Origin: a virus
DNA: 64,000 nucleotides
Direction: 5' to 3' (one strand)
IMG/VR virus record: IMGVR_UViG_3300027763_000026
The notes beneath the pieces were generated by a model. That model was not told the origin of the DNA. It saw nothing but the letters and a program-made list of their open reading frames with translations, and did no database searches. Position numbers and translations under genes: made by a program. Shown one piece after another: positions 2 to 15,106 of this stretch (positions are counted from its first letter, which is position 1; each line of letters begins with the position of its first letter).

Positions 2-433
2 TTTGAAAAAAAATGGCAAAAGCATCCATTCCCATTTACTGGTGTTGAAAAACAAAATCCTCAAAATTGGACTACTGTAGAGAAGAGAACTCAAGGCTGG
101 CTTAACATTCCTCCGCTTGGAATTGCTGTTGAAAGATTATCTGACGCGGTTAAAAGATACAAAGATAAATTACATTTTGTTAATTTTGAAAACCTTACAG
201 AAAATCCAAAAGAAGCCATGGATGGAGTATGGGATTATTTAGAATTAAAAGCTCCAAAGCATGATTTTAATAACGTAGAACAGTACACAACAGAGCATGA
301 AGCTGGTTGGCCATATGGAGATCATACAATTCGCAATAAAGTAGAACCTCTAGAAAAAGATTGGAACAAAGTTCTAGGAAAAGAATTTTCAGAACAAATT
401 AGTCAAAGTTTCAAGTGGATTAATCAATTATAA
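2..433 (+). CDS. Sulfotransferase-family protein, C-terminal part (5' truncated by window)
   Basis: Frame is open from base 2 (FEKKWQKHPF...), upstream of the ATG at 218. HFVNFENLTENPKEAMDGVWDYL...HDFNNVEQ...GDHTIRNKV resembles the C-terminus of P-loop sulfotransferases (F/YEDLxxxP motif). Confidence 0.6.
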   Translation, partial: FEKKWQKHPFPFTGVEKQNPQNWTTVEKRTQGWLNIPPLGIAVERLSDAVKRYKDKLHFVNFENLTENPKEAMDGVWDYLELKAPKHDFNNVEQYTTEHEAGWPYGDHTIRNKVEPLEKDWNKVLGKEFSEQISQSFKWINQL

Positions 434-440
434 AGTGTAA
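434..440 (+). promoter_or_regulatory. AGTGTAA motif (candidate late promoter)
   Basis: AGTGTAA 8 nt upstream of ATG 449; same motif precedes many structural genes. Confidence 0.55.
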
Positions 441-448
441 TTACATTT

Positions 449-673
449 ATGGATCCAATTAACCTACAAAAAGTAGATCAAGCACCAACGCCAAATTCCT
501 TGGAAATGGCTCGTAGTAGAATCACCAACGAACAACTTCAAAACTTTATTACTCTTTTAAGTTCTGTTGATTTGAATTTACCAGAAGGCAAGCAAGTATC
601 AGATATCAGAGCATTCAATATAAGAGTTGCGCCAAATAATAATGGCGGAATGATTAACGTAGTTTTTAAATAG
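449..673 (+). CDS. Hypothetical protein, 74 aa
   Basis: ORF fills the gap after the sulfotransferase and is preceded by the AGTGTAA motif; no family recognised. Confidence 0.65.
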   Translation: MDPINLQKVDQAPTPNSLEMARSRITNEQLQNFITLLSSVDLNLPEGKQVSDIRAFNIRVAPNNNGGMINVVFK

Positions 674-685
674 AACCTTGGGCAA

Positions 686-716
686 AGAGTAGAGTACTTA
701 TTGTAAGCTCAACTCT
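686..716. terminator. Imperfect hairpin between convergent genes (possible bidirectional terminator)
   Basis: agagt-a-gag-ta-ctta-ttg-taag-ctc-a-actct pairs imperfectly; lies between stops at 673 (+) and 724 (-). Confidence 0.3.
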
Positions 717-723
717 ATAATTT

Positions 724-798
724 TTACTTAACTCTCTCTACTAAATAATATATATAAACCAACACAGCTAAACAAATTAAAGTAGTAGAAATGGTCAT
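724..798 (-). CDS. Small single-pass membrane peptide (24 aa), not in ORF track
   Basis: MTISTTLICLAVLVYIYYLVERVK*: hydrophobic stretch then charged tail. ATG is 8 nt after the GT11 stop, with GGGA upstream. Confidence 0.45.
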   Translation of the reverse strand: MTISTTLICLAVLVYIYYLVERVK

Positions 799-806
799 AA
801 TCCCAA

Positions 807-1763
807 CTACTCTTTAAAGACTATATCTTTACAATCATACATCCAATGGGGTTGATTGCCTTCAACAAAATCAACTTCAATTTCTTCTATAGCATCTACG
901 CCATAAATTATTTGCTTGTCTATTACTGGGCTGTAAATTTTTGCAACTGGAGATAAGCAAGCCGCCCACCAACTAAAAGATGAATTAGCGCGAAATATAC
1001 TTCTTGCAAAATATAATTTTAAGAAGTCGTCAAGCCAATCAAATCCTATTTTGTCTAAGAAATCAGATCCTTTTGGATAACTCCATCCAGCCCTTATAGC
1101 TTTTGGTCGATCTTTATGCCAAGTGCCAACATAATCATCAGAAACCCATTCAATTTTTTCTGGATCAAAATCAAACTTTTCGAAAGCCCTGGAATATGAA
1201 TCTTTTGAAACAACAGAATAACCTTGATGGTTCTTCTTATTATAAGCAGGGTTAGAGATATCATCCCTTCTCAAATGAGCAATGTCATAAGTTCCCTGCC
1301 GATCTTCATTTCTTTTATACACATCTAAAGATTTTATTTCGTCACTAAACTCAAATACATTTTTTATTTCTTTTAATGACATTGGGTAAAATATTTTTGG
1401 ATTGTAAGCGCAAACGTTATCAACAAACATATGGTCTGAAAGAACTTTATATGGCTCATCTTTAGGCTCTCTGTCATCGCTTTTTATTCTTTCCATTTTT
1501 GAAGAGAATTTTTTTAATGCATAAGTTCTAAAATGAATATTATCTAAAACTTTTTGAGTTTGATTTAATTCTAATCTTAAAAGATCGTCTTCTATTATTT
1601 TATGATATTGGTTTTTAAATAATTTAGTTCCTTCCCAATCGCTAGGCAAGTAAAACTCATGCCCATTTATTTTTTGGTAATAATAGCCATATATATATTG
1701 GTGGATTCTATTGCCAAATCTTCCATTCCAATGGCATAAAAGAAGGATCTTTTTATCGAGCAT
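807..1763 (-). CDS. GT11-like (alpha-1,2-fucosyltransferase family) glycosyltransferase
   Basis: GRFGNRIHQY (cf. GGLGNQMFQY), AHLRRDD (cf. HVRRGD), ANSSFSWWAA (cf. NSTFSWW). Confidence 0.8.
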   Translation of the reverse strand: MLDKKILLLCHWNGRFGNRIHQYIYGYYYQKINGHEFYLPSDWEGTKLFKNQYHKIIEDDLLRLELNQTQKVLDNIHFRTYALKKFSSKMERIKSDDREPKDEPYKVLSDHMFVDNVCAYNPKIFYPMSLKEIKNVFEFSDEIKSLDVYKRNEDRQGTYDIAHLRRDDISNPAYNKKNHQGYSVVSKDSYSRAFEKFDFDPEKIEWVSDDYVGTWHKDRPKAIRAGWSYPKGSDFLDKIGFDWLDDFLKLYFARSIFRANSSFSWWAACLSPVAKIYSPVIDKQIIYGVDAIEEIEVDFVEGNQPHWMYDCKDIVFKE

Positions 1764-1808: not shown

Positions 1809-3287
1809 TTACCAAGGATAAAAAGACGCAGACTCTCCAACAGTGCACCCGCCATTAGCTATTTTAAATCTATTAAAATCTAATGAATATTGAACTTGCC
1901 AAGGGCCAACATTTGGATAGATTAAAGGACCATTTGCTCCATTTTGCCCACCTTGACCTTCAAAGTTGGTATAAAAAGCAGTATCAGGGTCAAGTCCAAT
2001 ATCATACGTTGGGTAAATGCCATTGCAACTACCAGCTTCTCGAAGTCCGTCTCCAGCGGAGATCTTTAATCCTCCTGCAGGAGTAGACTGCCAAATGGTA
2101 TTTATATGCCAATTATTAAGTGGTGGCATGGTATTAAAAAACGAAGGGTCACACGGATAAAGTGGGTCGTTACCGAATCCAGCAGCTTTGCATCCTAGCC
2201 TAGGAAACGTATGAGGAGCTGGATAAGCTGCTGACCAAGCGTAATTGTTGACGGATCCCGCGATGTTAGAATTGCAAAAACCGAATGATGCTGTGGCAGA
2301 AAACAATAATTCATTTGGGCAACTTAAAGTACATTGAGTACCTCCCATTTTTACATTCATTTTATATGTTGATACTCCAGTTAGAGCCCCACTCCAAGGC
2401 ACATCAATTAATAAATTATTCACTCTAGCAACATTAGTTTCAGTATAGTCTTTATATATAGCAACAAAAGCGCCCACAAAAGCTTTGCCAAATGGATGTA
2501 CGGGATGAGAATATTTATTAATATGACATTGGGTTCCTATAATTCCAGCTGTTCCACCTGCACCAGGCCATTCAGGTAATAAAATTCCAGCTTGCTCTTC
2601 ATTAGGAGCATATGAGCTATTAAATCTTGGATCAAACATTAGAATGTCTAAGGATTGAATTCCTCCCAATATAGGAGGATTAGAAGCAGCTTCAGCAGAA
2701 GTACCCCTCGCTTGAGTGAGTGCATCTTTAAAATACTGAGGAAGCAAAGATAAAGTTTGCCCACCTAAGCAGCCACAGTTTGTATTTGTCGGATTCCACC
2801 ATTGAGACCAGTTGCTATATGTTTTAGCAATTCTATTTCCCATGTCTAGACTTAATCCTACAGCAAAATTCTCATTTTTCTTTGATTCTGGGGCAGCTTC
2901 TCTATTGAGACAAGATCTCGCCCAAGGACTGTCTATAATAATGACAGCGTGCTTGTCTTTATAAGGAGGGCAAATATTAGAACCTCGCGTCAAATTATAT
3001 AAAACGTTACTAAAAATTGTATCATTAGATGGAAATTGTAAAAAACTGTTACTAGATCCATCGAGAGTATTAGCCGTGCTAAATTTAGTTCGCTTGTTTG
3101 CAAATGTGTTGCCTATCACCCACCTATATTCGTTAGCGCTATAGCACTTATTAAAATCCATATCATATGGATAAGCAAACACCCAAAATAATAATGGTAT
3201 TCCATCTCCCCAATAAGTGACATAATTCCAATCAAAATTTATTAAATCTCCATTATTATTAAGGTCTTTAGGAAAAAAATTAGCCAT
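1809..3287 (-). CDS. Hypothetical Gly/Pro/Cys/Trp-rich protein, 492 aa
   Basis: Long uninterrupted ORF; no family recognised. Confidence 0.75.
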   Translation of the reverse strand: MANFFPKDLNNNGDLINFDWNYVTYWGDGIPLLFWVFAYPYDMDFNKCYSANEYRWVIGNTFANKRTKFSTANTLDGSSNSFLQFPSNDTIFSNVLYNLTRGSNICPPYKDKHAVIIIDSPWARSCLNREAAPESKKNENFAVGLSLDMGNRIAKTYSNWSQWWNPTNTNCGCLGGQTLSLLPQYFKDALTQARGTSAEAASNPPILGGIQSLDILMFDPRFNSSYAPNEEQAGILLPEWPGAGGTAGIIGTQCHINKYSHPVHPFGKAFVGAFVAIYKDYTETNVARVNNLLIDVPWSGALTGVSTYKMNVKMGGTQCTLSCPNELLFSATASFGFCNSNIAGSVNNYAWSAAYPAPHTFPRLGCKAAGFGNDPLYPCDPSFFNTMPPLNNWHINTIWQSTPAGGLKISAGDGLREAGSCNGIYPTYDIGLDPDTAFYTNFEGQGGQNGANGPLIYPNVGPWQVQYSLDFNRFKIANGGCTVGESASFYPW

Positions 3288-3313: not shown

Positions 3314-3340
3314 TAGTTATAATATAACTAGTGTTACACT
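3314..3340. promoter_or_regulatory. Two adjacent palindromes at the divergent junction
   Basis: TAGTTATA-A-TATAACTA (3314-3330) then AGTGT-T-ACACT (3330-3340). The second gives AGTGTAA on the minus strand. TATAAT at 3318-3323. Confidence 0.45.
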
Positions 3341-4068
3341 ATAAAATATCTTCATTTTGCTCGTTCTTTAAATCCGAAAAATATATAAAAGGATATATAG
3401 ACGACGTACTAAGTCAATCAATATTTAAAGATATTGAATTTATATTTTTAAATTGTAATTCTCCAGAAAATGAAGAGCAATATATATTACCTTTAACTAA
3501 AAAATTCAAGAATATTAAATACTATAAATTAGAGAAAGACCCAGGGTTATTCCAATGTTGGAATTATGCCATAAAAAATCTATGTTCAGCAAATTTAATA
3601 AGTAATTGGAATTCAGATGATAGGAAATCGAGCAATAGTTTTGAGATTCTATACAAAGAATTTGAAAGGAATCCAGATTTAGATGTGGTTTATGGTCAAA
3701 CTTATATTTCTAATATATTAAATGAAAAATATATAGACAACGACTTCAATCAAATTTATCCTTGCCTACCTCATTCTTTTGATAATTTAATTAAAAATAA
3801 TTCACCGCATTGTATGCCTCTTTGGAAAAAATCTTTGCACGATAAATTTGGTTATTTTGATGAAAAATATCCAGTCGCAGCAGATGGAGATATGTGGTTA
3901 AAAGCTTGCGTAGGGGGAGCAAAAATTAAAATGGTAAATCATCCAATCGGTTTATACTATATGAACCCAGAGGGAAATTCTACCAAACAAAATAAATTAA
4001 AAGAGGCAATAAATGAAGTTCACGAAATGAGACGAAAATATTTGATATATAAAGGATATATTAATTAA
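3331..4068 (+). CDS. GT2 family glycosyltransferase
   Basis: GT-A N-terminus (FKSEKYIKGYIDDVLSQ...IEFIFLNCNS), GLFQCWNYAIK, NSDD (DxD-like), FGYFDEKYPVAADGDMWLK. Confidence 0.85.
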   Translation: MLHYKISSFCSFFKSEKYIKGYIDDVLSQSIFKDIEFIFLNCNSPENEEQYILPLTKKFKNIKYYKLEKDPGLFQCWNYAIKNLCSANLISNWNSDDRKSSNSFEILYKEFERNPDLDVVYGQTYISNILNEKYIDNDFNQIYPCLPHSFDNLIKNNSPHCMPLWKKSLHDKFGYFDEKYPVAADGDMWLKACVGGAKIKMVNHPIGLYYMNPEGNSTKQNKLKEAINEVHEMRRKYLIYKGYIN

Positions 4069-4739
4069 TGAATATTATATCTTTTTCTCTTTGGGGGGAT
4101 GATCCGAAATACAATATAGGAGCAGTAAAAAATTGTCAACTCGCAGAAATATATTATCCAGATTGGATTTGTAGATTTTATATAGCAGAAAACACCCCTA
4201 AAGAAACTATAAATACATTAAAGTCCAAACAAAACGCAGAAGTTATAGAAACGAAAGATTTTGGTAATTGGAAATCTACGATAAAGCGCTTCTTTCCTTT
4301 TTCTGAAGAAAATGTTAATTTATTTATAAGTAGAGACTGTGATTCGAGAATCTCGTCAAGAGAAGCCGCAGCAGTAAATGCATGGATGAATTCTGATAAA
4401 AAATTTCATATTATGAAAGACCATCCATATCATGGTAGTTTTCCAATTTTAGCTGGGATGTTTGGGGCTAAAAAAGGAATTATAAATAATATAAATGAAT
4501 TAATAGATGAATACCAAAAAGCAAATTTAAATGAGCAATATCATTTTGATCAAATATTTCTTTTAAAATATATATGGCCAAAAATCAAGGATGACTCAAT
4601 TATTCATGATGAGTTTTTTAATAAAAAACCATTTCCTACGATGAGATTAAATAATCAATTTGTTGGTGCAATTTTTGATGAGAACGACAACCAAGACCCA
4701 GTAGGTAAACAAGCACTAATTGAGCATCTAAACAAATGA
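4068..4739 (+). CDS. Putative glycosyltransferase-like protein (IISFSLWG family)
   Basis: IISFSLWG start, SRDCDSR DxD motif, FHIMKDHPYH, DQIFL; sits in the glycan cluster. Confidence 0.6.
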   Translation: MNIISFSLWGDDPKYNIGAVKNCQLAEIYYPDWICRFYIAENTPKETINTLKSKQNAEVIETKDFGNWKSTIKRFFPFSEENVNLFISRDCDSRISSREAAAVNAWMNSDKKFHIMKDHPYHGSFPILAGMFGAKKGIINNINELIDEYQKANLNEQYHFDQIFLLKYIWPKIKDDSIIHDEFFNKKPFPTMRLNNQFVGAIFDENDNQDPVGKQALIEHLNK

Positions 4740-6286
4740 ACACTTACTTAACTCTTTTTTACACGTCTCAAGATAAAGATTATCAAAAGAACCTAAATAA
4801 ACATCTTAATAATTATAAAAACTTAGGCTTTAAAGATATTTTTCTGTATACAGAAGAGTGCATCCCCAAAGATTTTGAATGGTTATATAAAGACTTTTTT
4901 CAAAAACATAGAAGAGGGTATGGATATTGGGCATGGAAATCATTAGCTATATATGATGGTATGAAAAAAATTAATGACGGAGATATGATTTTATATCATG
5001 ACGTAGGAAGAAGTTGCTATCCATTTGAGATAAGATATGATATAAACGACTTAGCTAAATATGTTAAAGATAATCATGACGGGATAGGCGTTGCTGTTGG
5101 GGGATTTTTACATAAAAGATTTTGCAAAAGAGACGCGTTTCATTATATGAAATGTGATGAAGAAAAATGCTGGAATTCGAATCAATTAGGCGCAACATGG
5201 AGTTTGTGGGAAAAAGCTGAATTACCTAAAAGATTAATAATGGATTGGATAAAATGGTCTTTTCACGAAAAAGAAATAATTACAGATCTTCCAAATAAAT
5301 GTGGATTACCGAATTTTCCAGAATTCGAAGATCATCGACATGATCAAGCTTTATTAACAAATCTTATCTATTTATATGGGAAAGACAATCCTAAAATTAA
5401 GCCTCTAAGCGCAAATGCTTGGGAAAAAGACATCAATCATTTTATTAAAAAATATAGCTCTGAATTAAAACTTATAATTCCAGAACCAATTATAAATAAT
5501 AATAAACATTGCACTCGAAAAATCATAGAAAAACCCAAGTTTACTACTAAAATTAGAAATGATACGACTGTAGTAACTAGCCATTTTAGTGAAGATTTAA
5601 AATGGTTAGCAGATAAAAGCCATATGTTTAATATCGTTTTATGTGACAAAAAAGGCTCCAATCAAATTCCTGATGAAATCATATCTAAATTTGATTGTGA
5701 TTCTTGTCCAACCATGGAAAATAAAGGAAGCGAAGGTTTGGCTTATTTAAATTATATAATTAAGAATTACGAGAATCTATCAGAAAGAACAGCATTTATA
5801 CATGGGCATGACACTGCTTGGCATTATAAAAATCCTTTATCAACTGCAGAGGCTATACTAGTTGCAAGAACAGATAAATATGGATATATATCTTTAAATA
5901 TAAAGCATCATCCTGGAGAAGACTATTCATTAGATAGAAATTATCAAATAGAAAGAACAGCGGGTTGGATTAAAAAATATTGGCAAGAATACTTCTATCC
6001 ATATTTAGGAGAAATTCCACAAAAATTTTCGCATGATTGCTGCGCGCAATTCGTAGTAAGAAAAGACAGGATTTTAAAACATCCAAAAGAGGCATATCAA
6101 AAATGGGCTAATTTATATTATGTAGTAGAAAAAGAAATGATCGAACCTAATAGGGGAAATTATAAAGATAAACACTCTCCACTTAATTATTTATTTGAAT
6201 TTATTTGGCATATAATTTTTGGTGAACCTGCGGTTGTTCCAGAAAATCAGAGAGATTTAAGTTATTTTAAAGAAAGGTTTTTATGA
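4736..6286 (+). CDS. Fusion: GT-like domain (GYWAWK...HRHDQ) + DUF3431-like domain
   Basis: N-half RGYGYWAWK, ILYHDVG, DHRHDQALL. C-half VVTSHFSEDLKWL, NKGSEGLAYLNYII.NYENL...AFIHGH, CCAQFVVRKDRILKHP (DUF3431-like). Confidence 0.65.
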   Translation: MNTYLTLFYTSQDKDYQKNLNKHLNNYKNLGFKDIFLYTEECIPKDFEWLYKDFFQKHRRGYGYWAWKSLAIYDGMKKINDGDMILYHDVGRSCYPFEIRYDINDLAKYVKDNHDGIGVAVGGFLHKRFCKRDAFHYMKCDEEKCWNSNQLGATWSLWEKAELPKRLIMDWIKWSFHEKEIITDLPNKCGLPNFPEFEDHRHDQALLTNLIYLYGKDNPKIKPLSANAWEKDINHFIKKYSSELKLIIPEPIINNNKHCTRKIIEKPKFTTKIRNDTTVVTSHFSEDLKWLADKSHMFNIVLCDKKGSNQIPDEIISKFDCDSCPTMENKGSEGLAYLNYIIKNYENLSERTAFIHGHDTAWHYKNPLSTAEAILVARTDKYGYISLNIKHHPGEDYSLDRNYQIERTAGWIKKYWQEYFYPYLGEIPQKFSHDCCAQFVVRKDRILKHPKEAYQKWANLYYVVEKEMIEPNRGNYKDKHSPLNYLFEFIWHIIFGEPAVVPENQRDLSYFKERFL

Positions 6287-7851: not shown

Positions 7852-7862
7852 TATAATTCATT

Positions 7863-8852
7863 ATGAACATTAAAAAATTAGCTGTTGTTTGTGGTGCGGG
7901 TGGCTTTATTGGCTCTCATTTAGTTAAAAAATTAAAAAGCGAAGGGTTTTGGGTTAGAGGAGTAGATCTAAAATACCCTCAATATTCATCAACAGAAGCG
8001 GATGATTTTCTTGTTGGAGATTTAACTTGTCCAATTTTTGCTCATAGAGCAATACCAGATGATGTAGACGAATTATACCAATTAGCCGCAGATATGGGTG
8101 GCGCAGGATATATTTTTACAGGAGAAAATGATGCAAATGTAATGCATAATTCAGCGCTAATCAATCTTAATATAGCTCATATCGCAGTTTCAAAAAGAAC
8201 AAAAAATTTATTCTATAGTTCTTCTGCTTGTGTTTATCCAGAATATAATCAATTAGACCCAAATAATCCAAAATGCTCAGAAGAATCAGCTTATCCAGCT
8301 GCACCAGATAGCGAATATGGATGGGAAAAGCTCTTTAGCGAAAGGCTCTTTTTGGCTTATAAAAGAAACCATAAATTAAATGTCCATGTCGCAAGATATC
8401 ATAATATTTTTGGTCCAGAAGGCACATATAAAGGTGGAAAAGAAAAATCTCCAGCTGCACTTTGCAGAAAAGTAATAGAGGCTCCAGATGGTGGAGAAAT
8501 TGAAATTTGGGGTGATGGCCAACAAACTAGATCATTTTTATATATAGATGAATGCGTAGAAGGCACAATTAAATTAATGAGATCAGATTTCGAAGGGCCA
8601 TTTAATATAGGATCAGAAGAAATGATATCAATTAATGATTTTGCAAAAATGATCATTGAATTGAGTGGCAAAAAATTAAGCATCAAGAATATATCAGGGC
8701 CACTAGGCGTAAGGGGCAGAAAATCAGATAACAAACTAATAAGAGAAAAACTCTTTTGGGCCCCTTCTCAACATCTAAAAGATGGAATACAAAAAACATA
8801 TAATTGGATTAAGAGCCAAATAGAGGATAAACAAATTGAGCCAAAATCTTAA
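7863..8852 (+). CDS. GDP-mannose 3,5-epimerase-like NAD-dependent epimerase
   Basis: GAGGFIGSHL, LAADMGGAGYI, YSSSACVYPE, AYPAAPDSEYGWEKL, RYHNIFGPEGTY.GGKEKSPAALCRK, GVRGRKSDN: the GME-specific motif set. Confidence 0.9.
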   Translation: MNIKKLAVVCGAGGFIGSHLVKKLKSEGFWVRGVDLKYPQYSSTEADDFLVGDLTCPIFAHRAIPDDVDELYQLAADMGGAGYIFTGENDANVMHNSALINLNIAHIAVSKRTKNLFYSSSACVYPEYNQLDPNNPKCSEESAYPAAPDSEYGWEKLFSERLFLAYKRNHKLNVHVARYHNIFGPEGTYKGGKEKSPAALCRKVIEAPDGGEIEIWGDGQQTRSFLYIDECVEGTIKLMRSDFEGPFNIGSEEMISINDFAKMIIELSGKKLSIKNISGPLGVRGRKSDNKLIREKLFWAPSQHLKDGIQKTYNWIKSQIEDKQIEPKS

Positions 8853-9978
8853 AGATACATATCATGGCAAAAAAATTGATACAGCTAATATTTTAAATAT
8901 AGAAGATGCCGCTAGATTAATCAACGGAAGGAAAACCTGTATCGTAACTGGAGTCACGGGTCAAGACGGCAGTTTCATGGTTGAATATTTACTTAAAAAT
9001 ACAGATCTTTTAATTTTTGGCGGAGTAAGAAGGCTCAGTGTTTATAATCATGAAAATATTAAACAGATTAAAAGCGATAGATTTCATTTAATTAATTTTG
9101 ATTTAACTGACGCTCATTCAATTAGCAGGACAATAGAAAAATTAAAGCCAGATTATTTCATTAATTTTGCGGCGCAAAGCTTTGTAGCTAGTAGCTGGGA
9201 TTTTGCTCGCCAGACTTGGGAAACAAATTCTACTGCGATATTAGATATATTAGAAGCAATTAGACTCTATAACCCATCTTGCAGATTATATCAAGCAGGC
9301 TCTAGTGAAGAGTTTGGCAATATACTTTATAGTCCTCAAGATGAAAATCATCCACTTAGGCCAAGAAGCCCATATGGAGCCTCAAAATGCGCTTCTAGAC
9401 AACTTATAAAAGTCTATAGAGAGTCGTATAATCTTTACGCAGTTCAAGGATGGTTATTTAATCATGAAGGTACCAGGAGAGGGGAAGAGTTTGTCACAAG
9501 AAAAATTACAAAAAACGTAGCGAGAATTTACCATGCAATTAAGGTCAATCAAGAATTTGAAGCCCTAGAACTAGGAAATATCGAAGCACAAAGAGATTGG
9601 AGTGATGCAGAGGATTTTATAGAGGGTATTTGGATGATGCTGAATCAAGACAAGTATAATAAAAACTATAATGGATCTCCTATAGATTACGTACTTTCTT
9701 CTAACGAAACTCATACGATTAAAGAATTCGTAGAAAAAGCTTTTAATATAGTCGGAATAAAAGGAAACTGGATCGGCGAAGGAGAGCATACGATGTATAT
9801 TTCAGAAGATAAAAAAGTATTAATGCAAATAAATTCTAAATTCTACAGACCTGCAGAAGTAAGCCTTTTGCGTGGTAAATCTGATAAAGCAAGAAGCGAC
9901 CTGGGGTGGAAACCAAATACTTTATTTGATGATTTAATTAAAAAAATGGTTGAATTTGATGTTAATCATACACGGTAG
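8836..9978 (+). CDS. gmd: GDP-mannose 4,6-dehydratase
   Basis: GVTGQDGSF, AAQSFVASSW, YQAGSSEEFG, PRSPYGASK, LFNHEGTRRGEEFVTRKI, RDWSDAED, FYRPAEV. TTG start with a ~30 aa N-terminal extension. Confidence 0.95.
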   Translation: MSQNLKDTYHGKKIDTANILNIEDAARLINGRKTCIVTGVTGQDGSFMVEYLLKNTDLLIFGGVRRLSVYNHENIKQIKSDRFHLINFDLTDAHSISRTIEKLKPDYFINFAAQSFVASSWDFARQTWETNSTAILDILEAIRLYNPSCRLYQAGSSEEFGNILYSPQDENHPLRPRSPYGASKCASRQLIKVYRESYNLYAVQGWLFNHEGTRRGEEFVTRKITKNVARIYHAIKVNQEFEALELGNIEAQRDWSDAEDFIEGIWMMLNQDKYNKNYNGSPIDYVLSSNETHTIKEFVEKAFNIVGIKGNWIGEGEHTMYISEDKKVLMQINSKFYRPAEVSLLRGKSDKARSDLGWKPNTLFDDLIKKMVEFDVNHTR

Positions 9979-10019: not shown

Positions 10020-10835
10020 ATGAAAATAAATAAGGTTTTATTCGTTAGCAATGATAATGAAAACTATATAAGTTTTTGGCCATCTATATCTAAACATTTT
10101 AAAAAATATTTAGGGTTAGATTGTAAATTATTCTTTATTGGTGATTACAATAAAGACAATTCAAAATACTTGACAGAAGATCATGGAGAAATACAATTTT
10201 TTAAACCTCTTAAAGAATATCCTTTAATTATCCAATGTTTATGGGGAAAATTTTGGTTCACTCAAACAGAATTAGATACAAACTGGTTAATAGGTGATAT
10301 AGATTTATATCCATTAAATAAAAAATATTATTTTGACGCTCTAAATAAAATACCACAAGACGGCTACGGGCATTTAAATGCGAACGGTTATAAATTTGGA
10401 AATTGGTACGATGTGCCTAAATTGGGATTGCCTGGTTATTATCATTGCGCAAAAGGATCGAAGTTTAAAGAATTTTTAAATCTCTCGTCTTCTTTTGAAG
10501 AAGACGTAAAATATATTTTTGAATCTAAAAAATATGGAGCAGCATTAAATGGTCTTTATCCAAATAAACAAGCCATACCCGATAGAGTAAAAAGAGCAAT
10601 TCCAGAGCACTATGAATATATTTGTTGCGAAGAAAACTTAAGCACAGAAAGATTAATGGATAAAAAAGATATAATACATTCATTTACATATCCTACAAAT
10701 CTAATTAGATTAGAGTCTTTAATGTTTTATAATAAAATGGATCATGACTTTTATATAGATATACATTGCCCTAGACCATATACAAAATATGGAGCAGATC
10801 TAGAAAAAATCTTAGAAAAATATGAAAACAATTAG
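10020..10835 (+). CDS. Hypothetical GT-A-like protein
   Basis: LIGDIDLYPL DxD motif; cluster context. Confidence 0.55.
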   Translation: MKINKVLFVSNDNENYISFWPSISKHFKKYLGLDCKLFFIGDYNKDNSKYLTEDHGEIQFFKPLKEYPLIIQCLWGKFWFTQTELDTNWLIGDIDLYPLNKKYYFDALNKIPQDGYGHLNANGYKFGNWYDVPKLGLPGYYHCAKGSKFKEFLNLSSSFEEDVKYIFESKKYGAALNGLYPNKQAIPDRVKRAIPEHYEYICCEENLSTERLMDKKDIIHSFTYPTNLIRLESLMFYNKMDHDFYIDIHCPRPYTKYGADLEKILEKYENN

Positions 10836-11625
10836 TCATTGGTGCGGAAGATTTGGTAATAATATACAACAATTAAGCAATGCGATATTATTTTGCGAAC
10901 AAAATAAAATGCATTTTAAAATGCCACACCATGATTTAATTAAAAATATTGATATAAAGTTTGGAGAAAAATTAACGTCTCCGAATCCATTCTTTTTTTA
11001 TAATGAAAGCATTACAAACCAAGGAGGACCTCATTTTCCAATCGACGTAAACTTCCTAAGAAAAGAAAGAAAAAAGATCTGTTTAAAATATATAAAACCA
11101 TTTTTAAATATAAAAGATGACTACCAATTGAATTCTAGTACATTAGTTATACATATAAGAAGTGGCGATATCTTTTCTAGAGAAAATTATTATTGTCCAG
11201 TTGTCTCTAGATATCTACAAGCACCAAAATTTTTTTATGAAAAAATAATTAAACAGTACACTAAAACAATTATAGTTACAGAAATAGATAAAAAAAATCC
11301 AGTTCTGGCAGAATTAGAAAAGTATAAAAACGTTCAAATCATGACTCCTTCATTGGAGCATTCAATAAAAATTATGCTGGGAGCAAAAAATCTAGCGACG
11401 TCAGGAGTATCGAGCTTTCCAATAGCATGTGGCCTACTTTCTTTAAATTTAGAAAAATTTTATAGCACAAATCTTTTTCTTGAAGAAATTATTAATTATA
11501 AAGATTTAGAAAAAACTGGCGCAGAAATATTTTTAGAAATGATAAATCTTGAAAAGTATATAAATTTCAATCAATGGTTAAATACGCCTTCTCAAAGAGA
11601 AATGATGCTAAAATATGAACAATAA
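10822..11625 (+). CDS. Second, divergent GT11-like glycosyltransferase
   Basis: GRFGNNIQQL and VIHIRSGDIF motifs; SGVSSF in the position of NSTFS. Confidence 0.65.
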   Translation: MKTISHWCGRFGNNIQQLSNAILFCEQNKMHFKMPHHDLIKNIDIKFGEKLTSPNPFFFYNESITNQGGPHFPIDVNFLRKERKKICLKYIKPFLNIKDDYQLNSSTLVIHIRSGDIFSRENYYCPVVSRYLQAPKFFYEKIIKQYTKTIIVTEIDKKNPVLAELEKYKNVQIMTPSLEHSIKIMLGAKNLATSGVSSFPIACGLLSLNLEKFYSTNLFLEEIINYKDLEKTGAEIFLEMINLEKYINFNQWLNTPSQREMMLKYEQ

Positions 11626-12397
11626 AATTATTTATTTATTAAGAAATTCTCCTAAAGACTTAATGCTTTTTAAAAAAAGTATAGAATTATTAAAATTAAA
11701 TTTTTTAGAAAATAATAATTACCCAATATATGTATTTAATGAAGACGTAGATGAATTTTTTTTTGAAAGATTAAATTTAGAATTTGCCTTAAAAATAACA
11801 AGTGTAAAAATAAAATTTAAACTTCCAGATTTTTTAAATAATAAATCAGTGCCAGAATTCATATTTGTGCAAGGCGTTCCATTTCCATTTACGTTAGGAT
11901 ATAGACACATGTGCAGATTTTATGCAGGAGAAATGTATAAGCATCAGATTTTACAAGACACAGACTATTATCTAAGATTAGATAATGATTCTTTTTTTAT
12001 CTCAAAAGTTAAATACGATATATTTAATCATATGAAAAATAATAATTTAATATACGGATATAATAAAATTACTACCGATAACCCAATAGTTGTAGAAAAC
12101 TTATGGGAAAGTGCTTTCGAATATAGTTCTAAAATAAAAACTATCAAAAAACCCATTATAGATATAAAACACCCATTAATATATTATACGAATTTTGAAA
12201 TAGCAAAAACTAAATGGTTTTTAGAAAAAGAATATAATGATTTTTACAATTTTATTGATAATCTTGGCGGAATATATCATAAAAGATGGGGAGATGCAGC
12301 GATAAAGTATTTGGGGATAGAAATGCTTTTAGAAGACAAATACAAATATAATTTCAATGATCTAAACTATCGTCACGGAAATATATTTAATTTTTAA
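11615..12397 (+). CDS. GT15-like (Kre2/Mnt1 alpha-1,2-mannosyltransferase family) protein
   Basis: GYRHMCRFYAG, DYYLRLDNDS, YYTNFEIA...WF, GGIYHKRWGDA match recalled GT15 motifs (SYRHMCRF, YYWRVEP, NFEI, RWGDA). Confidence 0.75.
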   Translation: MNNKIIYLLRNSPKDLMLFKKSIELLKLNFLENNNYPIYVFNEDVDEFFFERLNLEFALKITSVKIKFKLPDFLNNKSVPEFIFVQGVPFPFTLGYRHMCRFYAGEMYKHQILQDTDYYLRLDNDSFFISKVKYDIFNHMKNNNLIYGYNKITTDNPIVVENLWESAFEYSSKIKTIKKPIIDIKHPLIYYTNFEIAKTKWFLEKEYNDFYNFIDNLGGIYHKRWGDAAIKYLGIEMLLEDKYKYNFNDLNYRHGNIFNF

Positions 12398-13267
12398 ATG
12401 AATATAGTGCTTTTTAATTTTGGAGAGAATAAACCTTATTTTAAAGATTGCATTTCTCAAGCTAAAAAATATAATCAAAAAATAAATGTATTTTTCATAG
12501 GCAATGACAAAAAATACGTAGAAGAAGCAGAATTTTATGATCTAAAAGATCTAGAAAAATCAGAAAACATTAAAAAATTTAATGATTTAGATTTTTACTC
12601 TAAACATGAAAATCCATTGTGGACAACATCAATGATGAGATTTTTTTATATGGAAGATTTCATAAGAAAATTTAATTTAAAAAATATATTTCATTTTGAT
12701 AATGATGTATTAATATATGGCGATTTTAATAATGTATTAAGCAAAATAAATCTTGAAGAAGAAAATATATTTACGCCTACCAATAATTTTAATTTAACAT
12801 GCGGTTTATTTTATACTAAATCTTATAATTCAATTTTTAAATTAAATTCATTAATTTTAAATAAAATTTCTATCGAAACATCAATGCTAAACCAAAAGTA
12901 TTCGTCATCCCGAAGTCTACCAGAGGAACCCTTCATGGCCAATGAGATGACTATATTGAAAATTATACAAGATGAAAATATGGGGGTTATATCCCTTTTC
13001 CCTACGATGCCCAAAAGCGAAAATTATGAAAGATACAATATATGTTTTGATCCTTCTTCTTGGGGTCAATATATTGGTGGTACGCCAAATACTGGACCAG
13101 GATGGGCAGGGAGTCATCATAGAATAGGAAAAGAAATTTTAAACAATAAATATAAAGCTTATATGGACGCAGATAATAAACCGAAAATTCTTGATTTGAA
13201 ATCTAATAATAGTTACGAATTATTTAATCTTCATATTCATAGCAAAAACTTAAATAAATTTATATAA
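12398..13267 (+). CDS. Hypothetical GT-A-like protein
   Basis: MMRFFYMEDF...FHFDNDVLIY DxD motif; ends HIHSK; cluster context. Confidence 0.55.
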   Translation: MNIVLFNFGENKPYFKDCISQAKKYNQKINVFFIGNDKKYVEEAEFYDLKDLEKSENIKKFNDLDFYSKHENPLWTTSMMRFFYMEDFIRKFNLKNIFHFDNDVLIYGDFNNVLSKINLEEENIFTPTNNFNLTCGLFYTKSYNSIFKLNSLILNKISIETSMLNQKYSSSRSLPEEPFMANEMTILKIIQDENMGVISLFPTMPKSENYERYNICFDPSSWGQYIGGTPNTGPGWAGSHHRIGKEILNNKYKAYMDADNKPKILDLKSNNSYELFNLHIHSKNLNKFI

Positions 13268-13345
13268 AAATATATTTGATATATATCATACAATATACAT
13301 GCATAGCCAAAATATACAAATCATATATCATGAAAAAAAAAAAAC

Positions 13346-14019
13346 ATGAATATACTTTATGTCATATTGAGTTGCCAAAAATTTATTCCTACAAAATGTC
13401 AATGGATCAAAAAAACATGGGTCAAAAATTTAAATCAAAATGATGATTATGTAATTTTGGCTCAAAAGAAGATCTTTTGAATAAAACTGTAGGATACGAC
13501 ACTGGAGACGAATACAAGCATGCTGCCGATAAATATTCTGAATTTTTTAAAAATTACCAACCCGCTGCGGACATAGATTGGTTATTTTTTGTAGACGACG
13601 ATACATACGTGTACACAAGCAGATTAAAGTCTGCACTTAATAGTTACAGCGGAGACGAAGTCATTGGCAGAGAAATATGGGTAGGACCAGAAGTAGCATC
13701 CAGAGGAATTCACAAAGATAATGGTAGGGTTATCTTTCCTGTAAATTGCCCTTCGGGAGGATCAGGCTTTGCAATAAGTAAAAAAGTTTTTTATATCATA
13801 AAAAAATATGTAAACGACGATATTCACTGTAAAGTTCATAACAGTGATGTAACATTTGGTTTTTGGTCCAGAGAAAATAATATACCTATAATAAATAGAC
13901 CCGACCTTTTTAAGTCACAAAATCCAGATCATCCAGAAAATATAAACGTAAAAACCCCTGTAACTTGGCATTATTGCGAAGAAAAACATTTTATCGAAAG
14001 TTTTTTAAATGATTTATGA
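13346..14019 (+). pseudogene. GT31-like (Fringe/C1GalT galactosyltransferase family) gene interrupted by a 1-nt frameshift
   Basis: ATG 13346 reads MNILYVILSCQK...KKTWVKNLNQNDDYVIL and stops at 13478-13480. The -1 frame is open from 13447 and reads GSKEDLLNK...DWLFFVDDDTYV...SGGSGFAISK...SDVTFGFW...TWHY (GT31 motifs). Could be a sequencing error. Confidence 0.65.
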
Positions 14020-15106
14020 TTTTTTAATAGTAGGCGCTGGTCTTTTCGGCTCTACCTTTGCCCAAAAAGCAAAAGAATCTGGTAAAAAATGTTTGATGAT
14101 AGACTCAAGAAATCATATCGGTGGAAATGTTTATACAGAAAATAAAGAAGGAATAAATATACATAAATATGGTCCACATATATTTCATACCAATAATGAC
14201 GAAATATGGAATTATATAAATAAATTCGCAAGGTTCAACCATTTCGTTTGTAGACCTAAAGTTAATTTTAAAAATAAAATATTTTCTTTTCCTATAAATC
14301 TTTTTACCTTGTATCAACTTTGGGGAGTTAATACGCCAGAGTTAGCTAAAAGCAAGCTAGAAGAAGTTAAAGTTAAAATTCAAGAACCGAACAATCTAGA
14401 AGAATGGATTCTATCACAAGTCGGCGAAGAAATATATCATACTTTTATATATGGATATACAAAAAAACAATGGGGAAGAGAACCAAAAGAACTTCCTTCT
14501 TTTATTATAAAAAGATTACCAATAAGATTAAATTTTGATGATAATTATTTCTTCGATAAATATCAAGGAGTTCCTATAGATGGATATACAAAATTAATAG
14601 AAAATATGACAGAAGGAATAGATATCATATTAAATGAAAACTACTTTGATAGAAGAGATTATTGGAATAAAAAAGCTAAATCTATAGTTTATACTGGCAA
14701 AATAGATGAGTTTTTTGATTATAAATATGGTGAACTAGAATACAGAAGTCTAAGATTTGAAACAGAAAAACATTTAATAAAAGATTATCAAGGAAACGCT
14801 ATAATCAATTATACAGATTATAATATTCCATATACAAGAATAGTAGAACATAAACACTTTGAATTTGGAAATCAAGATTATACTTACATAACTAAAGAGT
14901 ATCCCGACTCTTGGAATAAAAATAAAGTTCCATATTATCCAATTAATAATGAACAAAATAACTATAAGTATAATAAATATAAAGACTTGAACGAAAAAAC
15001 AAATACTATATTTGGAGGAAGATTAGCCGAATACAAATACTACGATATGCATCAAATAATAGGATCTGCTTTACAAAAAATAAAAAAGATTGACAATAGT
15101 ATATAA
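14009..15106 (+). CDS. glf: UDP-galactopyranose mutase
   Basis: IVGAGLFG, RNHIGGNVY, HKYGPHIFHT, GYTKKQWG, LEYRSL, YTRIVEHKHF, PYYP, GRLAEYKYYDMHQII. Confidence 0.97.
   Translation: MIYDFLIVGAGLFGSTFAQKAKESGKKCLMIDSRNHIGGNVYTENKEGINIHKYGPHIFHTNNDEIWNYINKFARFNHFVCRPKVNFKNKIFSFPINLFTLYQLWGVNTPELAKSKLEEVKVKIQEPNNLEEWILSQVGEEIYHTFIYGYTKKQWGREPKELPSFIIKRLPIRLNFDDNYFFDKYQGVPIDGYTKLIENMTEGIDIILNENYFDRRDYWNKKAKSIVYTGKIDEFFDYKYGELEYRSLRFETEKHLIKDYQGNAIINYTDYNIPYTRIVEHKHFEFGNQDYTYITKEYPDSWNKNKVPYYPINNEQNNYKYNKYKDLNEKTNTIFGGRLAEYKYYDMHQIIGSALQKIKKIDNSI

What the first reader, a model, noticed from the sequence alone, without database searches (positions are those of the whole stretch)
2..15106. Phage glycan factory built largely from GT families best known in eukaryotes: candidate virion O-glycosylation system
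Seen: about 15 contiguous genes encode nucleotide-sugar enzymes (GME-like, Gmd, Glf), GT11 x2, GT2, GT32, GT15-like, GT31-like, several orphan DxD proteins, a methyltransferase fusion and a sulfotransferase. No Wzx/Wzy/ABC exporter or lipid-carrier initiating transferase was recognised. Known: GT15 (Kre2/Mnt1) extends fungal O-mannose; GT31 includes C1GalT1 and Fringe; GT11 includes H-antigen fucosyltransferases; GT32 includes Och1. Inference: the island decorates phage proteins rather than a host O-antigen. The same genome encodes mucin-like Thr/Pro tracts and Thr-collagen, which would be acceptors for a methylated/sulfated glycan shield.
Basis: partly seen in the sequence, partly recalled or inferred. 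Interest (0 to 1): 0.8.

Follow-up and report, generated by a model that had tools for sequence, protein, structure and literature searches.

The report
Hypervariable sugar-coat gene island of lake phage
A large uncultured lake phage carries a real 15-kb block of about sixteen soluble sugar-making and sugar-transferring enzyme genes that differs even between near-identical phages; it probably builds a strain-specific glycan inside the infected cell, but whether on the phage's own proteins or on the host surface is still unproven.

Summary
Window 2-15106 is a tightly packed island. It encodes three nucleotide-sugar enzymes (plant-type GDP-mannose 3,5-epimerase, GMD, Glf) and ten glycosyltransferase-like proteins. 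These are GT2, a true GT15 catalytic domain, GT31/Fringe-like, an FkbM-GT32 fusion, two remote GT11-like proteins, three orphan GT-A proteins and an orphan-plus-DUF3431 fusion. There is also a probable sulfotransferase and one fast-evolving orphan. No protein in the 64-kb window has a transmembrane helix. Five island-bearing viral relatives, one of them complete, encode no priming transferase, Wzx or Wzy.

New here: the island sits at a fixed site upstream of GMD-RecA-DnaB. Its content is swapped between phages whose replication proteins are 88-97% identical. The GT31 "truncation" is an assembly frameshift. Two orphan GT-A families are virus-only and shared with giant viruses.

The virion-glycosylation reading is plausible (about 0.4) but unproven. 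Relatives with islands lack Pro-Thr or collagen acceptors. The island is co-oriented with replication genes. Published cyanophage islands of the same kind (S-SCSM1, S-SRM01, P-SSM2) are read as host-surface modification.

This scan has already noted GT15-containing phage islands in at least seven other genomes. Verdict: a new variant of a known, functionally unresolved kind.

The parts
2..433 (+). C-terminal 143 aa of a probable sulfotransferase, cut by the window edge
   Evidence: Pfam Sulfotransfer_1 E 9e-4, below cut-off. phrog_27463 E 4e-11. The 56%-identical full-length homologue in G003 has PAPS-loop-like motifs GLPRACSTL and VRDVRGIICS.
807..1763 (-). Remote GT11-like (alpha-1,2-fucosyltransferase superfamily) transferase
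   Evidence: Motifs GRFGN, HLRRDD and NSSFSWWAA. hhalign against a Pfam-verified GT11 cluster gives 99.0%, E 3e-18. phrog_2644 glycosyltransferase E 1e-5. Closest cellular homologue is 42% identical, in a Verrucomicrobiales MAG.
1809..3287 (-). Conserved orphan protein (492 aa), the fastest-evolving gene of the island; function unknown
   Evidence: No Pfam, PHROG, NCBIfam, PDB or Atlas hit. 18 metagenomic relatives. None found in 185k species genomes. 53-54% identity in L179-L182, where neighbouring genes are 82-94% identical.
3331..4068 (+). GT2 family glycosyltransferase
   Evidence: PF00535 E 2.4e-11.
4068..4739 (+). Orphan GT-A fold glycosyltransferase (retaining GT6/GT8-like shape) of a virus-rich family
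   Evidence: AF2 model pLDDT 82. Foldseek PDB hits: 4ayl E 3e-6, glycogenin, PBCV-1 A64R 2p6w. BFVD best hits are giant-virus proteins at 26-34% identity, E 1e-13 to 1e-18. Conserved RDCDSR motif.
4736..6286 (+). Two-domain protein: orphan N-terminal domain (res 1-230, widespread in GT15 cassettes) plus C-terminal DUF3431
   Evidence: PF11913 E 1.6e-32 at residues 279-503. The N-terminal domain has more than 30 homologues next to GT15 genes but no Pfam or PDB relative.
6283..7851 (+). FkbM-type methyltransferase fused to a GT32 (DXD sugar-binding) domain
   Evidence: PF04488 E 1.6e-6, above cut-off. PF05050 E 8e-4, below cut-off.
7863..8852 (+). GDP-mannose 3,5-epimerase (predicted product GDP-L-galactose / GDP-L-gulose)
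   Evidence: Arabidopsis GME 2c59 E 3e-93 over the full length. 59-62% identical genes in 37 cyanomyovirus records.
8836..9978 (+). GDP-mannose 4,6-dehydratase
   Evidence: PF16363 E 1.8e-99. Conserved at the right end of the island in all relatives.
10020..10835 (+). Orphan GT-A-like transferase of virus-only clusters
   Evidence: ESM Atlas nearest clusters are 100% viral. Structural TM 0.63 to GT2 and 0.77 to a giant-virus FkbM fusion. GDIDLYP motif.
10822..11625 (+). Second, more divergent GT11-like transferase
   Evidence: Motifs GRFGN and HIRSGD. hhalign against the GT11 cluster gives 95.4%, E 1.7e-8.
11615..12397 (+). GT15 (Kre2/Ktr-type alpha-1,2-mannosyltransferase) catalytic domain without membrane anchor or stem
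   Evidence: PF01793 E 3.6e-33. Family profile against Ktr4 7boo E 1.5e-47 and Kre2 1s4n E 3.3e-47, covering the whole catalytic domain. YRHMCRF, RWGD and C-terminal His conserved.
12398..13267 (+). Orphan GT-A fold glycosyltransferase
   Evidence: AF2 model pLDDT 85. Foldseek hits: 4ayl E 1.6e-7, XXYLT1 4wlm, LH3 GT domain, LARGE1.
13346..14019 (+). GT31/Fringe-like transferase; frameshifted in the window assembly, intact in source-run contigs
   Evidence: PF02434 E 6e-9 on 13477-14019. An extra A behind 13459 is present in Logan contigs of X1 (depth 149) and X2. With it the gene is a 224-aa ORF collinear with L001 and L008.
14009..15106 (+). UDP-galactopyranose mutase (makes UDP-galactofuranose)
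   Evidence: PF03275 E 2e-76 and PF13450 E 1e-19.
26107..30002 (+). Outside the finding: GT4 (with DUF4214), GT9-like and an unknown gene. A lineage-conserved unit beside the fibre genes and a possible partner of the island
   Evidence: PF00534 E 5e-7 and PF01075 E 2e-5. Conserved with the replication module in G003 (51/31/42% identity) and beside a GT15 island in L031. Found in only 2 of 10 other GT15-bearing records.
31430..32785 (-). Candidate acceptor: (Gly-Ala-Thr / Gly-Pro-Thr)n collagen-like fibre protein, 17% Thr
   Evidence: Translation. Tail-fibre and collagen PHROGs.
32796..37589 (-). Candidate acceptor: 1597-aa modular adhesin with five Pro-Thr / TPTSSP linkers
   Evidence: Translation. 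P-domain hit.

Best explanation
The island is an accessory, hypervariable glycan-assembly module of a roughly 190-kb freshwater tailed phage.

Shown:
- It encodes enzymes that would convert host GDP-mannose and UDP-galactose into GDP-L-galactose (GME), GDP-4-keto-6-deoxymannose (GMD) and UDP-galactofuranose (Glf).
- It encodes about ten soluble transferases of different families, plus methyl- and probably sulfo-transferases.
- It has no membrane component.
- Its gene content is exchanged between otherwise near-identical phages at one fixed genomic site.

Inferred:
- The enzymes work in the cytoplasm of the infected cell. They build a short, branched, capped (methylated or sulfated) hetero-oligosaccharide step by step on a soluble acceptor.
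- The most likely acceptors are the phage's own surface proteins, such as fibres, adhesins or capsid decoration. This would give each phage strain its own glycan coat, as chloroviruses, mimiviruses and some mycobacteriophages do.
- In this lineage the conserved GT4/GT9-like pair next to the fibre genes may add the first sugar, with the variable island extending it.
For: Gene content and families.

All proteins soluble: no transmembrane segment in any ORF of the 64-kb window.

No lipid-linked machinery in relatives: no PF02397, PF00953, PF01943 or PF04932 in five island-bearing viral records, including the 100%-complete relative G003. G003 has no multi-pass membrane protein of flippase or polymerase type.

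Hypervariability at a fixed site:
- L013 shares RecA 93%, DnaB 96% and ThyX 91%, yet its GT15 is only 40% identical and its island holds a different GT set.
- L003, L004, L054 and G003 have the same layout of island, GMD, RecA.

Virus-specific transferases shared with giant viruses. There is also fold similarity to the PBCV-1 capsid-glycosylating A64R.

The GT15 clade is far commoner on viral and metagenomic contigs (at least 495 metagenome and 108 IMG/VR relatives) than in 185,579 species genomes (16).

Thr-rich collagen and Pro-Thr linkers lie in virion-type proteins 15-22 kb away.

Precedent: mycobacteriophage virion O-glycosylation (Freeman 2023, as cited in PMC12619734).
Against: - No experiment or expression data exist.
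- The proposed acceptors do not co-occur with islands in relatives.
- Ordinary O-antigen and capsule transferases are also soluble, and the host could supply the primer, flippase and ligase.
- The island is co-oriented and contiguous with the replication genes, not with the structural operon.
- The nearest published islands, in cultured cyanomyoviruses, are interpreted as host cell-wall modification.
- Untested earlier notes place a PEP-CTERM/prepilin host-surface cassette just upstream and a BY-kinase-like gene elsewhere in this genome.
- The rest of the genome could not be searched.
Confidence: 0.42

Rival explanations
1. Host-envelope remodelling. The phage transferases extend or replace a host undecaprenyl-phosphate-linked glycan (O-antigen, capsule, S-layer or PEP-CTERM-protein glycan). 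The host's own primer, flippase and ligase export it. The infected cell's surface changes, which could block superinfection, stop progeny adsorbing to debris or alter grazer recognition.
For: - Same-kind islands in P-SSM2, S-SCSM1, S-SCSM2R and S-SRM01 are annotated and discussed this way.
- O-antigen transferases are typically soluble (background knowledge).
- The island is transcribed in the same direction as the replication genes.
- Island content varies like an O-antigen locus.
- Homologues of GT15 and the GT11-like 807-1763 sit in Verrucomicrobiales chromosomes.
- Untested notes report a PEP-CTERM surface cassette just upstream and a BY-kinase-like gene.
Against: - No phage-encoded membrane step exists in the window or in five relatives.
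- A newly built ten-step glycan would have to be accepted by host flippase and ligase within one lytic cycle.
- The Verrucomicrobiales homologues are not in Wzx/Wzy loci. They sit in small cassettes between housekeeping genes or transposases.
- Several transferase families are virus-only and shared with giant viruses, which have no bacterial envelope to modify.
Confidence: 0.3
2. Glycosylation of phage-encoded proteins that are not part of the virion, for example the PEP-CTERM or prepilin-like surface proteins encoded just upstream. The island would then be part of a larger 'infected-cell surface' module.
For: By earlier untested notes, the two cassettes lie next to each other in the same variable zone between nrdAB and RecA. 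PEP-CTERM proteins are linked to exopolysaccharide systems (Haft 2006, as cited in those notes).
Against: - The close relative L013 has the island directly next to nrdA with no such cassette. Adjacency may therefore only reflect a shared insertion hotspot.
- Sec-exported proteins are normally not glycosylated in the cytoplasm first.
- The upstream region could not be read here.
Confidence: 0.08
3. DNA hypermodification. Some of the transferases glycosylate modified bases in phage DNA to evade restriction, as in T4 and other phages with glycosylated hydroxymethyl-pyrimidines.
For: Transferase genes lie in and next to the replication module. The GT4/GT9-like pair follows the polymerase and SSB genes. 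The literature shows diverse DNA glycans made by phage transferases (Pyle 2024, cited in PMC12619734).
Against: - No hydroxymethylase or other base-modifying enzyme is in the window. The replication ORFs are primase, PD-(D/E)XK nuclease, PHP, exonuclease, DnaE and ThyX.
- Ten transferases plus GDP-L-Gal, 6-deoxyhexose and Galf supply far exceed any known DNA glycan.
- GT15, GT11, GT31 and GT32 act on glycan or protein acceptors in all characterised members (background knowledge).
Confidence: 0.05

Closest known systems
'LPS / cell-wall modification' gene clusters of large T4-like cyanophages (P-SSM2, S-SCSM1, S-SCSM2R, S-SSM7, S-SRM01; PMC12801897, PMC9602691; GenBank MW015081)
   Same: - Both are 10-15-kb islands in large aquatic phages combining GMD, GME or Fcl, several GT11-type fucosyltransferases, GT2, GT25, FkbM methyltransferase and unnamed transferases.
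- The GME here is 59-62% identical to theirs.
- S-SRM01 has a homologue of 4068-4739 inside its island.
- No exporter genes are present, and function is untested.
   Different: - This phage is a different lineage: DnaE-type polymerase and a RecA-like, DnaB, ThyX module.
- Its island adds GT15, which has no match in 50,697 phage records, together with GT31/Fringe, DUF3431, Glf and a sulfotransferase.
- Near-identical relatives show that the island is swapped at a fixed site.
Mycobacteriophage virion O-glycosylation (Che8, Corndog, Myrna; Freeman et al. 2023, PMC10527164, cited)
   Same: Phage-encoded soluble transferases modify Ser/Thr-rich parts of structural proteins in the cytoplasm. This is the only experimentally shown case of the mechanism proposed here.
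   Different: - Those systems have 2-4 transferases next to the capsid and tail genes, and they modify C-terminal tails of capsid and tail-tube subunits.
- Here there are about ten transferases plus sugar-nucleotide synthesis, placed beside replication genes, and no modification has been shown.
Giant-virus autonomous glycosylation (chlorovirus PBCV-1 A64R and related enzymes; mimivirus fibril glycosylation clusters) - from background knowledge and PDB titles 2p6w/2p72
   Same: - Both use cytoplasmic, membrane-independent, virus-encoded glycan synthesis with their own GMD, multi-domain transferase-methyltransferase fusions and strain-specific clusters.
- 4068-4739 and 10020-10835 belong to families shared with Nucleocytoviricota.
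- There is GT-A fold similarity to A64R.
   Different: - Those are eukaryotic viruses with N-linked or fibril glycans.
- Sequence identity is only 18-34%.
- No common ancestry of whole clusters was shown.
Cytoplasmic O-glycosylation of bacterial repeat proteins: Bacillus BclA GXT collagen and streptococcal serine-rich-repeat adhesins (GtfA/B and later transferases) - background knowledge
   Same: Thr/Ser-dense repeat fibres are glycosylated stepwise by soluble transferases. A GT4 enzyme primes and others extend. The (GAT/GPT)n protein here resembles the BclA acceptor.
   Different: No homology of the priming enzymes was tested or found. The acceptor link is an analogy only, and island-bearing relatives lack such repeats.

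Membership tests
CAZy GT15 / Pfam PF01793 (Kre2/Ktr alpha-1,2-mannosyltransferases) | Full-length sequence match to the catalytic domain of solved members | tested here: met
   PF01793 E 3.6e-33 covering profile positions 58-323 of 325. Family profile against 7boo E 1.5e-47 and 1s4n E 3.3e-47.
CAZy GT15 / Pfam PF01793 | Conserved active-site motifs (YRHMCRF Tyr, metal-binding acidic residue, RWGD, C-terminal His) | tested here: met
   Invariant Y96, R97, C100, D123/D125, R224-W-G-D227 and H254 in 28 sequences. These align with the Ktr4 equivalents. The fungal EP(D/K) metal site reads D-x-D here. Roles of the residues are from background knowledge.
CAZy GT15 / Pfam PF01793 | Type II membrane anchor and stem (Golgi localisation) of the eukaryotic enzymes | tested here: not met
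   The 260-aa protein starts at the catalytic domain (aligned to Ktr4 from residue 69) and has no hydrophobic segment. It is therefore a soluble catalytic-domain-only form.
CAZy GT15 / Pfam PF01793 | GDP-mannose-dependent alpha-1,2-mannosyl transfer | not testable with these tools
   Needs an enzyme assay.
CAZy GT11 / Pfam PF01531 (alpha-1,2-fucosyltransferases) | Significant match to the family model | tested here: inconclusive
   No direct Pfam hit at E up to 10 for 807-1763 or 10822-11625. hhalign against a cluster whose members hit PF01531 (E 1e-18 and 1e-26) gives 99.0% and 95.4%.
CAZy GT11 / Pfam PF01531 | Conserved motifs G-x-L/F-G-N-Q, H-x-R-R-G-D and S-x-F-S-W-W | tested here: met
   807-1763 has GRFGN, HLRRDD and NSSFSWWAA. 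10822-11625 has GRFGN and HIRSGD, but the third motif is degenerate (GVSSFPIA). Both are best called GT11-like within the GT11/23/65 superfamily.
GDP-mannose 3,5-epimerase (GME) | Full-length similarity to characterised GME that clearly exceeds similarity to other SDR epimerases | tested here: met
   2c59 E 3e-93. The next family, UDP-glucuronate decarboxylase, scores E 1e-27 and Fcl E 6e-19.
GT31 / Fringe (PF02434) | Match to the family model over an intact domain including the DDD motif | tested here: met
   PF02434 E 6e-9. FFVDDDTYV is present. The ORF is intact at 224 aa once the extra A seen in source-run contigs is included.
GT32 (PF04488) fused to FkbM methyltransferase (PF05050) | Both domains above the family thresholds | tested here: inconclusive
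   PF04488 scores 29.1 bits against a cut-off of 23, so it is met. PF05050 scores 19.9 bits against a cut-off of 22.7, so it is not met. The N-terminal SQNGEDG motif is FkbM-like (background knowledge).
Sulfotransferase (PF00685/PF13469) | PAPS-binding 5'-PSB and 3'-PB motifs and a family-model match | tested here: inconclusive
   Only the C-terminal 143 aa are in the window. Pfam E 9e-4 is below cut-off and there is no PDB hit. The motifs are seen only in the 56%-identical full-length homologue of G003.
Wzx/Wzy- or ABC-dependent surface-polysaccharide pathway | Priming phosphoglycosyltransferase, flippase or ABC transporter, and polymerase or ligase encoded with the transferases | tested here: not met
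   No transmembrane protein in the window. PF02397, PF00953, PF01943 and PF04932 are absent from five island-bearing viral records. The rest of this genome is not held, and host-supplied parts are not excluded.
Phage virion O-glycosylation system (mycobacteriophage type) | Glycan demonstrated on structural proteins and dependent on phage transferases | not testable with these tools
   Needs virion mass spectrometry and transferase knock-outs.
Phage virion O-glycosylation system (mycobacteriophage type) | Transferase genes linked to structural genes or to Ser/Thr-rich acceptors across relatives | tested here: not met
   The island is beside replication genes. Collagen is found in 1 of 5 island-bearing records and (TP)4 tracts in 0 of 5. 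Only 2 of 1304 neighbouring ORFs are repeat-rich.

The most novel reading that the evidence does not exclude
Tailed phages of several aquatic lineages and giant viruses share a virus-specific toolkit of soluble transferases: a membrane-anchor-less GT15, GT11-like enzymes, and the orphan GT-A families of 4068-4739 and 10020-10835. In the cytoplasm this toolkit builds a strain-specific, capped glycan coat on virion proteins. The coat would be a viral counterpart of the bacterial O-antigen, diversified by cassette exchange at a fixed genomic hotspot. In this lineage a conserved GT4/GT9-like pair would serve as primer.
Probability: 0.3. Interest if true: 0.8.

Novelty: new variant of a known kind. 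Interest (0 to 1): 0.5.

Why it matters
Large glycosylation gene clusters have been annotated in big aquatic phages since the first cyanomyovirus genomes. They are routinely labelled 'LPS genes', yet their target has never been tested.

This locus sharpens the question in three ways:
- The machinery is entirely soluble.
- It is swapped between phages that are otherwise almost identical.
- It draws on transferase families that are mainly viral, some of them shared with giant viruses.

If the product coats the virion, phage particles in lakes and oceans would carry strain-specific glycans. That would bear on host recognition, defence evasion, grazing and particle stickiness. The prokaryotic GT15 clade would also be a new source of soluble mannosyltransferases. 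If the product instead remodels the host surface, this would be an unusually elaborate case of lytic-phage host reprogramming.

Tried and rejected
Identifying the phage and its genome:
- A megablast of the island against 50,697 phage records found nothing.
The remaining roughly 125 kb could therefore not be searched for exporters or acceptors.
- The single-protein GT15 search and a search with the PA14/GLEYA structural-region protein (61210-62430) in IMG/VR found nothing. The alignment query did work.
- The genome search could not reach the JGI metagenome contigs of L003 and L013. Their IMG/VR copies were used instead.

Annotating the orphan proteins:
- Sequence searches of six orphans against Pfam at E up to 10, PHROGs, NCBIfam and PDB gave essentially nothing.
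- 1809-3287 stayed unassignable.
- The N-terminal domain of 4736-6286 showed no profile relation to the other orphan GT-A families.
- I first took the widespread cassette member to be DUF3431. BLAST coordinates showed that it matches the N-terminal domain instead.

Testing the target:
- The co-occurrence test of islands with Pro-Thr or collagen proteins came out negative.
- The idea that the GT4/GT9-like unit generally accompanies GT15 islands was rejected: it occurs in 2 of 10 records.
- An AGTGTAA motif before structural genes also lies 47 nt before 1809-3287. That copy overlaps the GT2 start region, and in G003 the motif also precedes non-structural genes. It gives no timing evidence.
- DNA hypermodification: no base-modifying enzyme was found in the window.
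- Runs with small word shares were not used to infer habitat beyond 'freshwater'.

Full report
**What the window is**

The 64-kb window is phage DNA of about 30% G+C.
- The + strand from 15.4 to 30 kb carries a replication module. It comprises a RecA-like protein, DnaB, ThyX, primase, PD-(D/E)XK nuclease, PHP, an exonuclease, a DnaE-type polymerase and an SSB slot.
- The - strand from 30 to 64 kb carries fibre, baseplate and tape-measure genes.
- The DNA occurs in freshwater metagenomes. Two runs hold it almost completely, and a run of a third study holds 95-99% identical pieces.
- Earlier notes of this scan describe the genome as a roughly 190-kb lake phage with a probable Verrucomicrobia-type host. 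I could not read beyond the window because the genome is not held.

**The observation**

ORFs fill 2-15106 with overlaps or gaps of a few bases. Most lie on the + strand, with a divergent pair on the - strand (807-1763 and 1809-3287).

- GME: 2c59, E 3e-93, full length.
- GMD, Glf, GT2, GT15, GT32 with a weak FkbM hit, DUF3431 and Fringe/GT31.
- The GT15 call is robust. A profile of 28 relatives matches the fungal Ktr4 and Kre2 structures at E 1e-47 over the whole catalytic domain, with the signature motifs invariant. The phage protein begins where the Golgi enzymes' stem ends.
- The two 'GT11' genes are not seen by Pfam. They carry the GRFGN and HxRxGD motifs, and one also carries SFSWW. They match a Pfam-verified GT11 cluster from related loci at 99.0% and 95.4% hhalign probability.
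- Two orphan 'DxD' proteins gave confident AlphaFold models (pLDDT 82 and 85) with a GT-A fold. The closest shapes are retaining GT6/GT8-type enzymes and the PBCV-1 A64R domain.
- A third orphan falls in virus-only GT-A-like clusters of the ESM Atlas.

Corrections:
- The GT31 gene looks truncated only because the window has a one-base frameshift. Contigs of the two source runs carry an extra A behind 13459, which restores a 224-aa ORF collinear with homologues.
- The sulfotransferase is cut by the window edge and is weakly supported here. A full-length 56%-identical homologue in a relative has PAPS-loop-type motifs.
- 4736-6286 is a fusion. The orphan N-terminal domain is the widespread one, and the DUF3431 domain is C-terminal.
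- 1809-3287 remains without any assignment.

**No membrane machinery**

No ORF in the 64 kb has a transmembrane segment.

I searched five IMG/VR records that carry a related island, one of them a 100%-complete 140-kb relative with the same replication module. None has a match to the families of priming phosphoglycosyltransferases, WecA/MraY-type transferases, Wzx or Wzy/ligase. Control genomes did ring for each family. The complete relative has no multi-pass membrane protein of that kind.

It could not be run on this genome's remaining DNA.

**New: a hypervariable island at a fixed site**

Relatives were recovered by searching metagenome and viral contigs with the GT15 alignment.
- L013/L101 shares RecA (93%), DnaB (96%), ThyX (91%) and primase (92%). 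Its island, between nrdA and GMD, is only 8 kb and contains a different set: GT2, GT11, a GT7C-like protein, GT2, a 40%-identical GT15, DUF6445 and a 2OG oxygenase.
- L003/L097 (RecA 89%), L004, L054 and the complete G003 all have the order island, GMD, small ORF, RecA, each with its own transferase set.
- Sub-blocks move as units. GT2, 4068, 10020, 10822, GT15 and 12398 are collinear in L002, L004, L005 and L009. In the window that block is split by an insertion of 4736-9978.
- The left half (807, 1809 | GT2, 4068, 4736 ... GME, GMD) recurs in four other viral contigs at 82-94% identity. The exception is the orphan 1809-3287, at 53-54%.
- A different, commoner cassette accompanies GT15 in some 20-35 other loci: GT11 x2, the orphan domain, GT2, DUF5672, a 4068-like gene, GT15 and GT25. 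In some of them it is followed by an SLH-OprB porin typical of cyanobacteria.

**Distribution of the GT15 clade**

- At least 495 metagenome contigs and 108 IMG/VR contigs encode relatives. The IMG/VR set includes three giant-virus bins at 25-30% identity.
- Only 16 of 185,579 species genomes do, mostly archaea, CPR bacteria and two Verrucomicrobiales.
- No GenBank phage record has one.
- In the Verrucomicrobiales chromosomes the gene sits in small cassettes, not in Wzx/Wzy loci. One cassette is GT15, JmjC-type oxygenase, sulfotransferase, an unknown gene and a 42% homologue of 807-1763. The other is a GT15-methyltransferase fusion, GT15 and a FUT8-like gene between transposases.

**What is already known**

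Cultured T4-like cyanophages carry the same kind of island.
- S-SCSM1 is annotated with GME, an O-fucosyltransferase-like gene, an alpha-1,2-fucosyltransferase, NodZ and five further transferases.
- S-SCSM2R has 13 transferases.
- S-SRM01 has a 13-kb run of GT25, GT11 x2, GT2 x2, FkbM, NodZ, Fcl and GMD that includes a homologue of 4068-4739.
- The GME is 59-62% identical in 37 cyanomyovirus records.
- These papers interpret the genes as host cell-wall or LPS modification, or as DNA glucosylation, without experiments.
- Virion O-glycosylation by phage transferases has been shown only for mycobacteriophages (Freeman 2023, cited).
- This scan has noted GT15-containing phage islands in at least seven other genomes. 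One follow-up reached a similar 'probably virion, unproven' verdict.

**Mechanism**

Shown: the enzyme inventory, its solubility, the sugar-nucleotide steps implied by homology, and cassette exchange at a fixed site.

Inferred:
- Host GDP-mannose is converted to GDP-L-galactose or GDP-L-gulose (GME) and to GDP-4-keto-6-deoxymannose (GMD). No Fcl is present in the window, so the final 6-deoxyhexose is unknown.
- UDP-galactose is converted to UDP-galactofuranose (Glf).
- About ten transferases then add mannose (GT15, GT32), L-galactose or fucose (the GT11-like pair), galactofuranose or hexoses (GT2, GT31 and the GT-A orphans). Methyl and sulfate groups act as caps.

For the acceptor I favour phage proteins (0.42), for four reasons:
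- A purely soluble pathway needs nothing else.
- Complete relatives encode no membrane step.
- Several transferases are virus-specific and shared with giant viruses, which are known to glycosylate their own particles.
- Thr-collagen and Pro-Thr linkers are present here.

Against this reading:
- Island-bearing relatives lack such repeats.
- The island lies with the replication genes.
- The host-supplied lipid pathway cannot be excluded, which gives the host-remodelling rival 0.30.
- The GT4/GT9-like pair beside the fibre genes is conserved in this lineage but not among GT15 islands generally. Its role as primer is a lineage-level guess.
- DNA glycosylation is unlikely for the island (0.05), because no base-modification genes are present.

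**Verdict**

The locus is a new variant of a known but functionally unresolved kind of phage island. Three things are notable: its demonstrable hypervariability at a fixed site, its soluble GT15, and its virus-specific transferases shared with giant viruses.

Noticed in passing
window 13346-14019 (break near 13459): The GT31/Fringe-like gene is split by a one-base frameshift in the window. Logan contigs of both probable source runs (depth 149 and 4.8) carry an extra A behind 13459 that restores a 224-aa ORF. This is likely an assembly error or a minor variant in the window sequence.
   Followed up: yes
window 434-440, 17009-17015 (+); 42496, 55123, 61161, 62441, 63769 (-); also G003: AGTGTAA lies 7-20 nt before start codons. 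In the window 7 of 11 copies fall in the 3.8% of DNA that is intergenic, mostly before tail and baseplate genes. In the complete relative G003, 8 of 21 copies are intergenic and lie 7-14 nt before starts. This is probably a promoter or initiation signal of one gene class.
   Followed up: partly
window 1809-3287 (-): This Cys/Trp/Pro-rich orphan protein is conserved in 18 metagenomic relatives but has no detectable family. It diverges much faster than its neighbours: 53-54% identity against 82-94% in L179-L182. It may be under diversifying selection or may have been replaced by recombination.
   Followed up: partly
window 26107-30002 (+); G003 44184-48085; L031 1-3752: A GT4 (with DUF4214), a GT9-like gene and an unknown gene travel with the replication module in this phage lineage. 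In L031 the unit lies next to a GT15 island. It is absent from 8 of 10 other GT15-bearing large viral records.
   Followed up: partly
L090 9713-14151 (Verrucomicrobiales MAG contig): A chromosomal mini-cassette sits between housekeeping genes and away from any Wzx/Wzy genes. It comprises GT15, a JmjC/Cupin_8 oxygenase, a sulfotransferase, an unknown gene and a GT11-like gene 42% identical to window 807-1763. It hints at a protein-directed modification unit in the probable host phylum.
   Followed up: partly
L087 9992-13140 (Verrucomicrobiales MAG contig): A GT15-methyltransferase fusion, a second GT15 and a FUT8-like fucosyltransferase are flanked by two transposases, so the cassette appears mobile.
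   Followed up: no
L052 11679-13148 and about 9 similar loci: An SLH-domain OprB-type porin gene lies 1.6-2.4 kb downstream of the GT15/GT25 cassette in one group of metagenomic loci. This suggests that these are cyanophages carrying a host-type outer-membrane porin.
   Followed up: no
window 61210-62430 (-), 37591-40251 (-), 44651-48055 (-): Three structural-region proteins carry recognisable domains. One has a PA14/GLEYA lectin-type domain (E 2e-19) and two have FG-GAP repeats (up to E 3e-89). The particle may itself bind carbohydrates.
   Followed up: no
window 449-673 (+): A small ORF of about 74 aa lies between the sulfotransferase and 807-1763 and is preceded by an AGTGTAA motif. No annotation was attempted.
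   Followed up: no
L013 11524-12249 and 14332-15027: The sister phage's island contains DUF6445 and a 2OG-Fe(II) oxygenase that the window lacks. Oxygenases may belong to some versions of the pathway.
   Followed up: no
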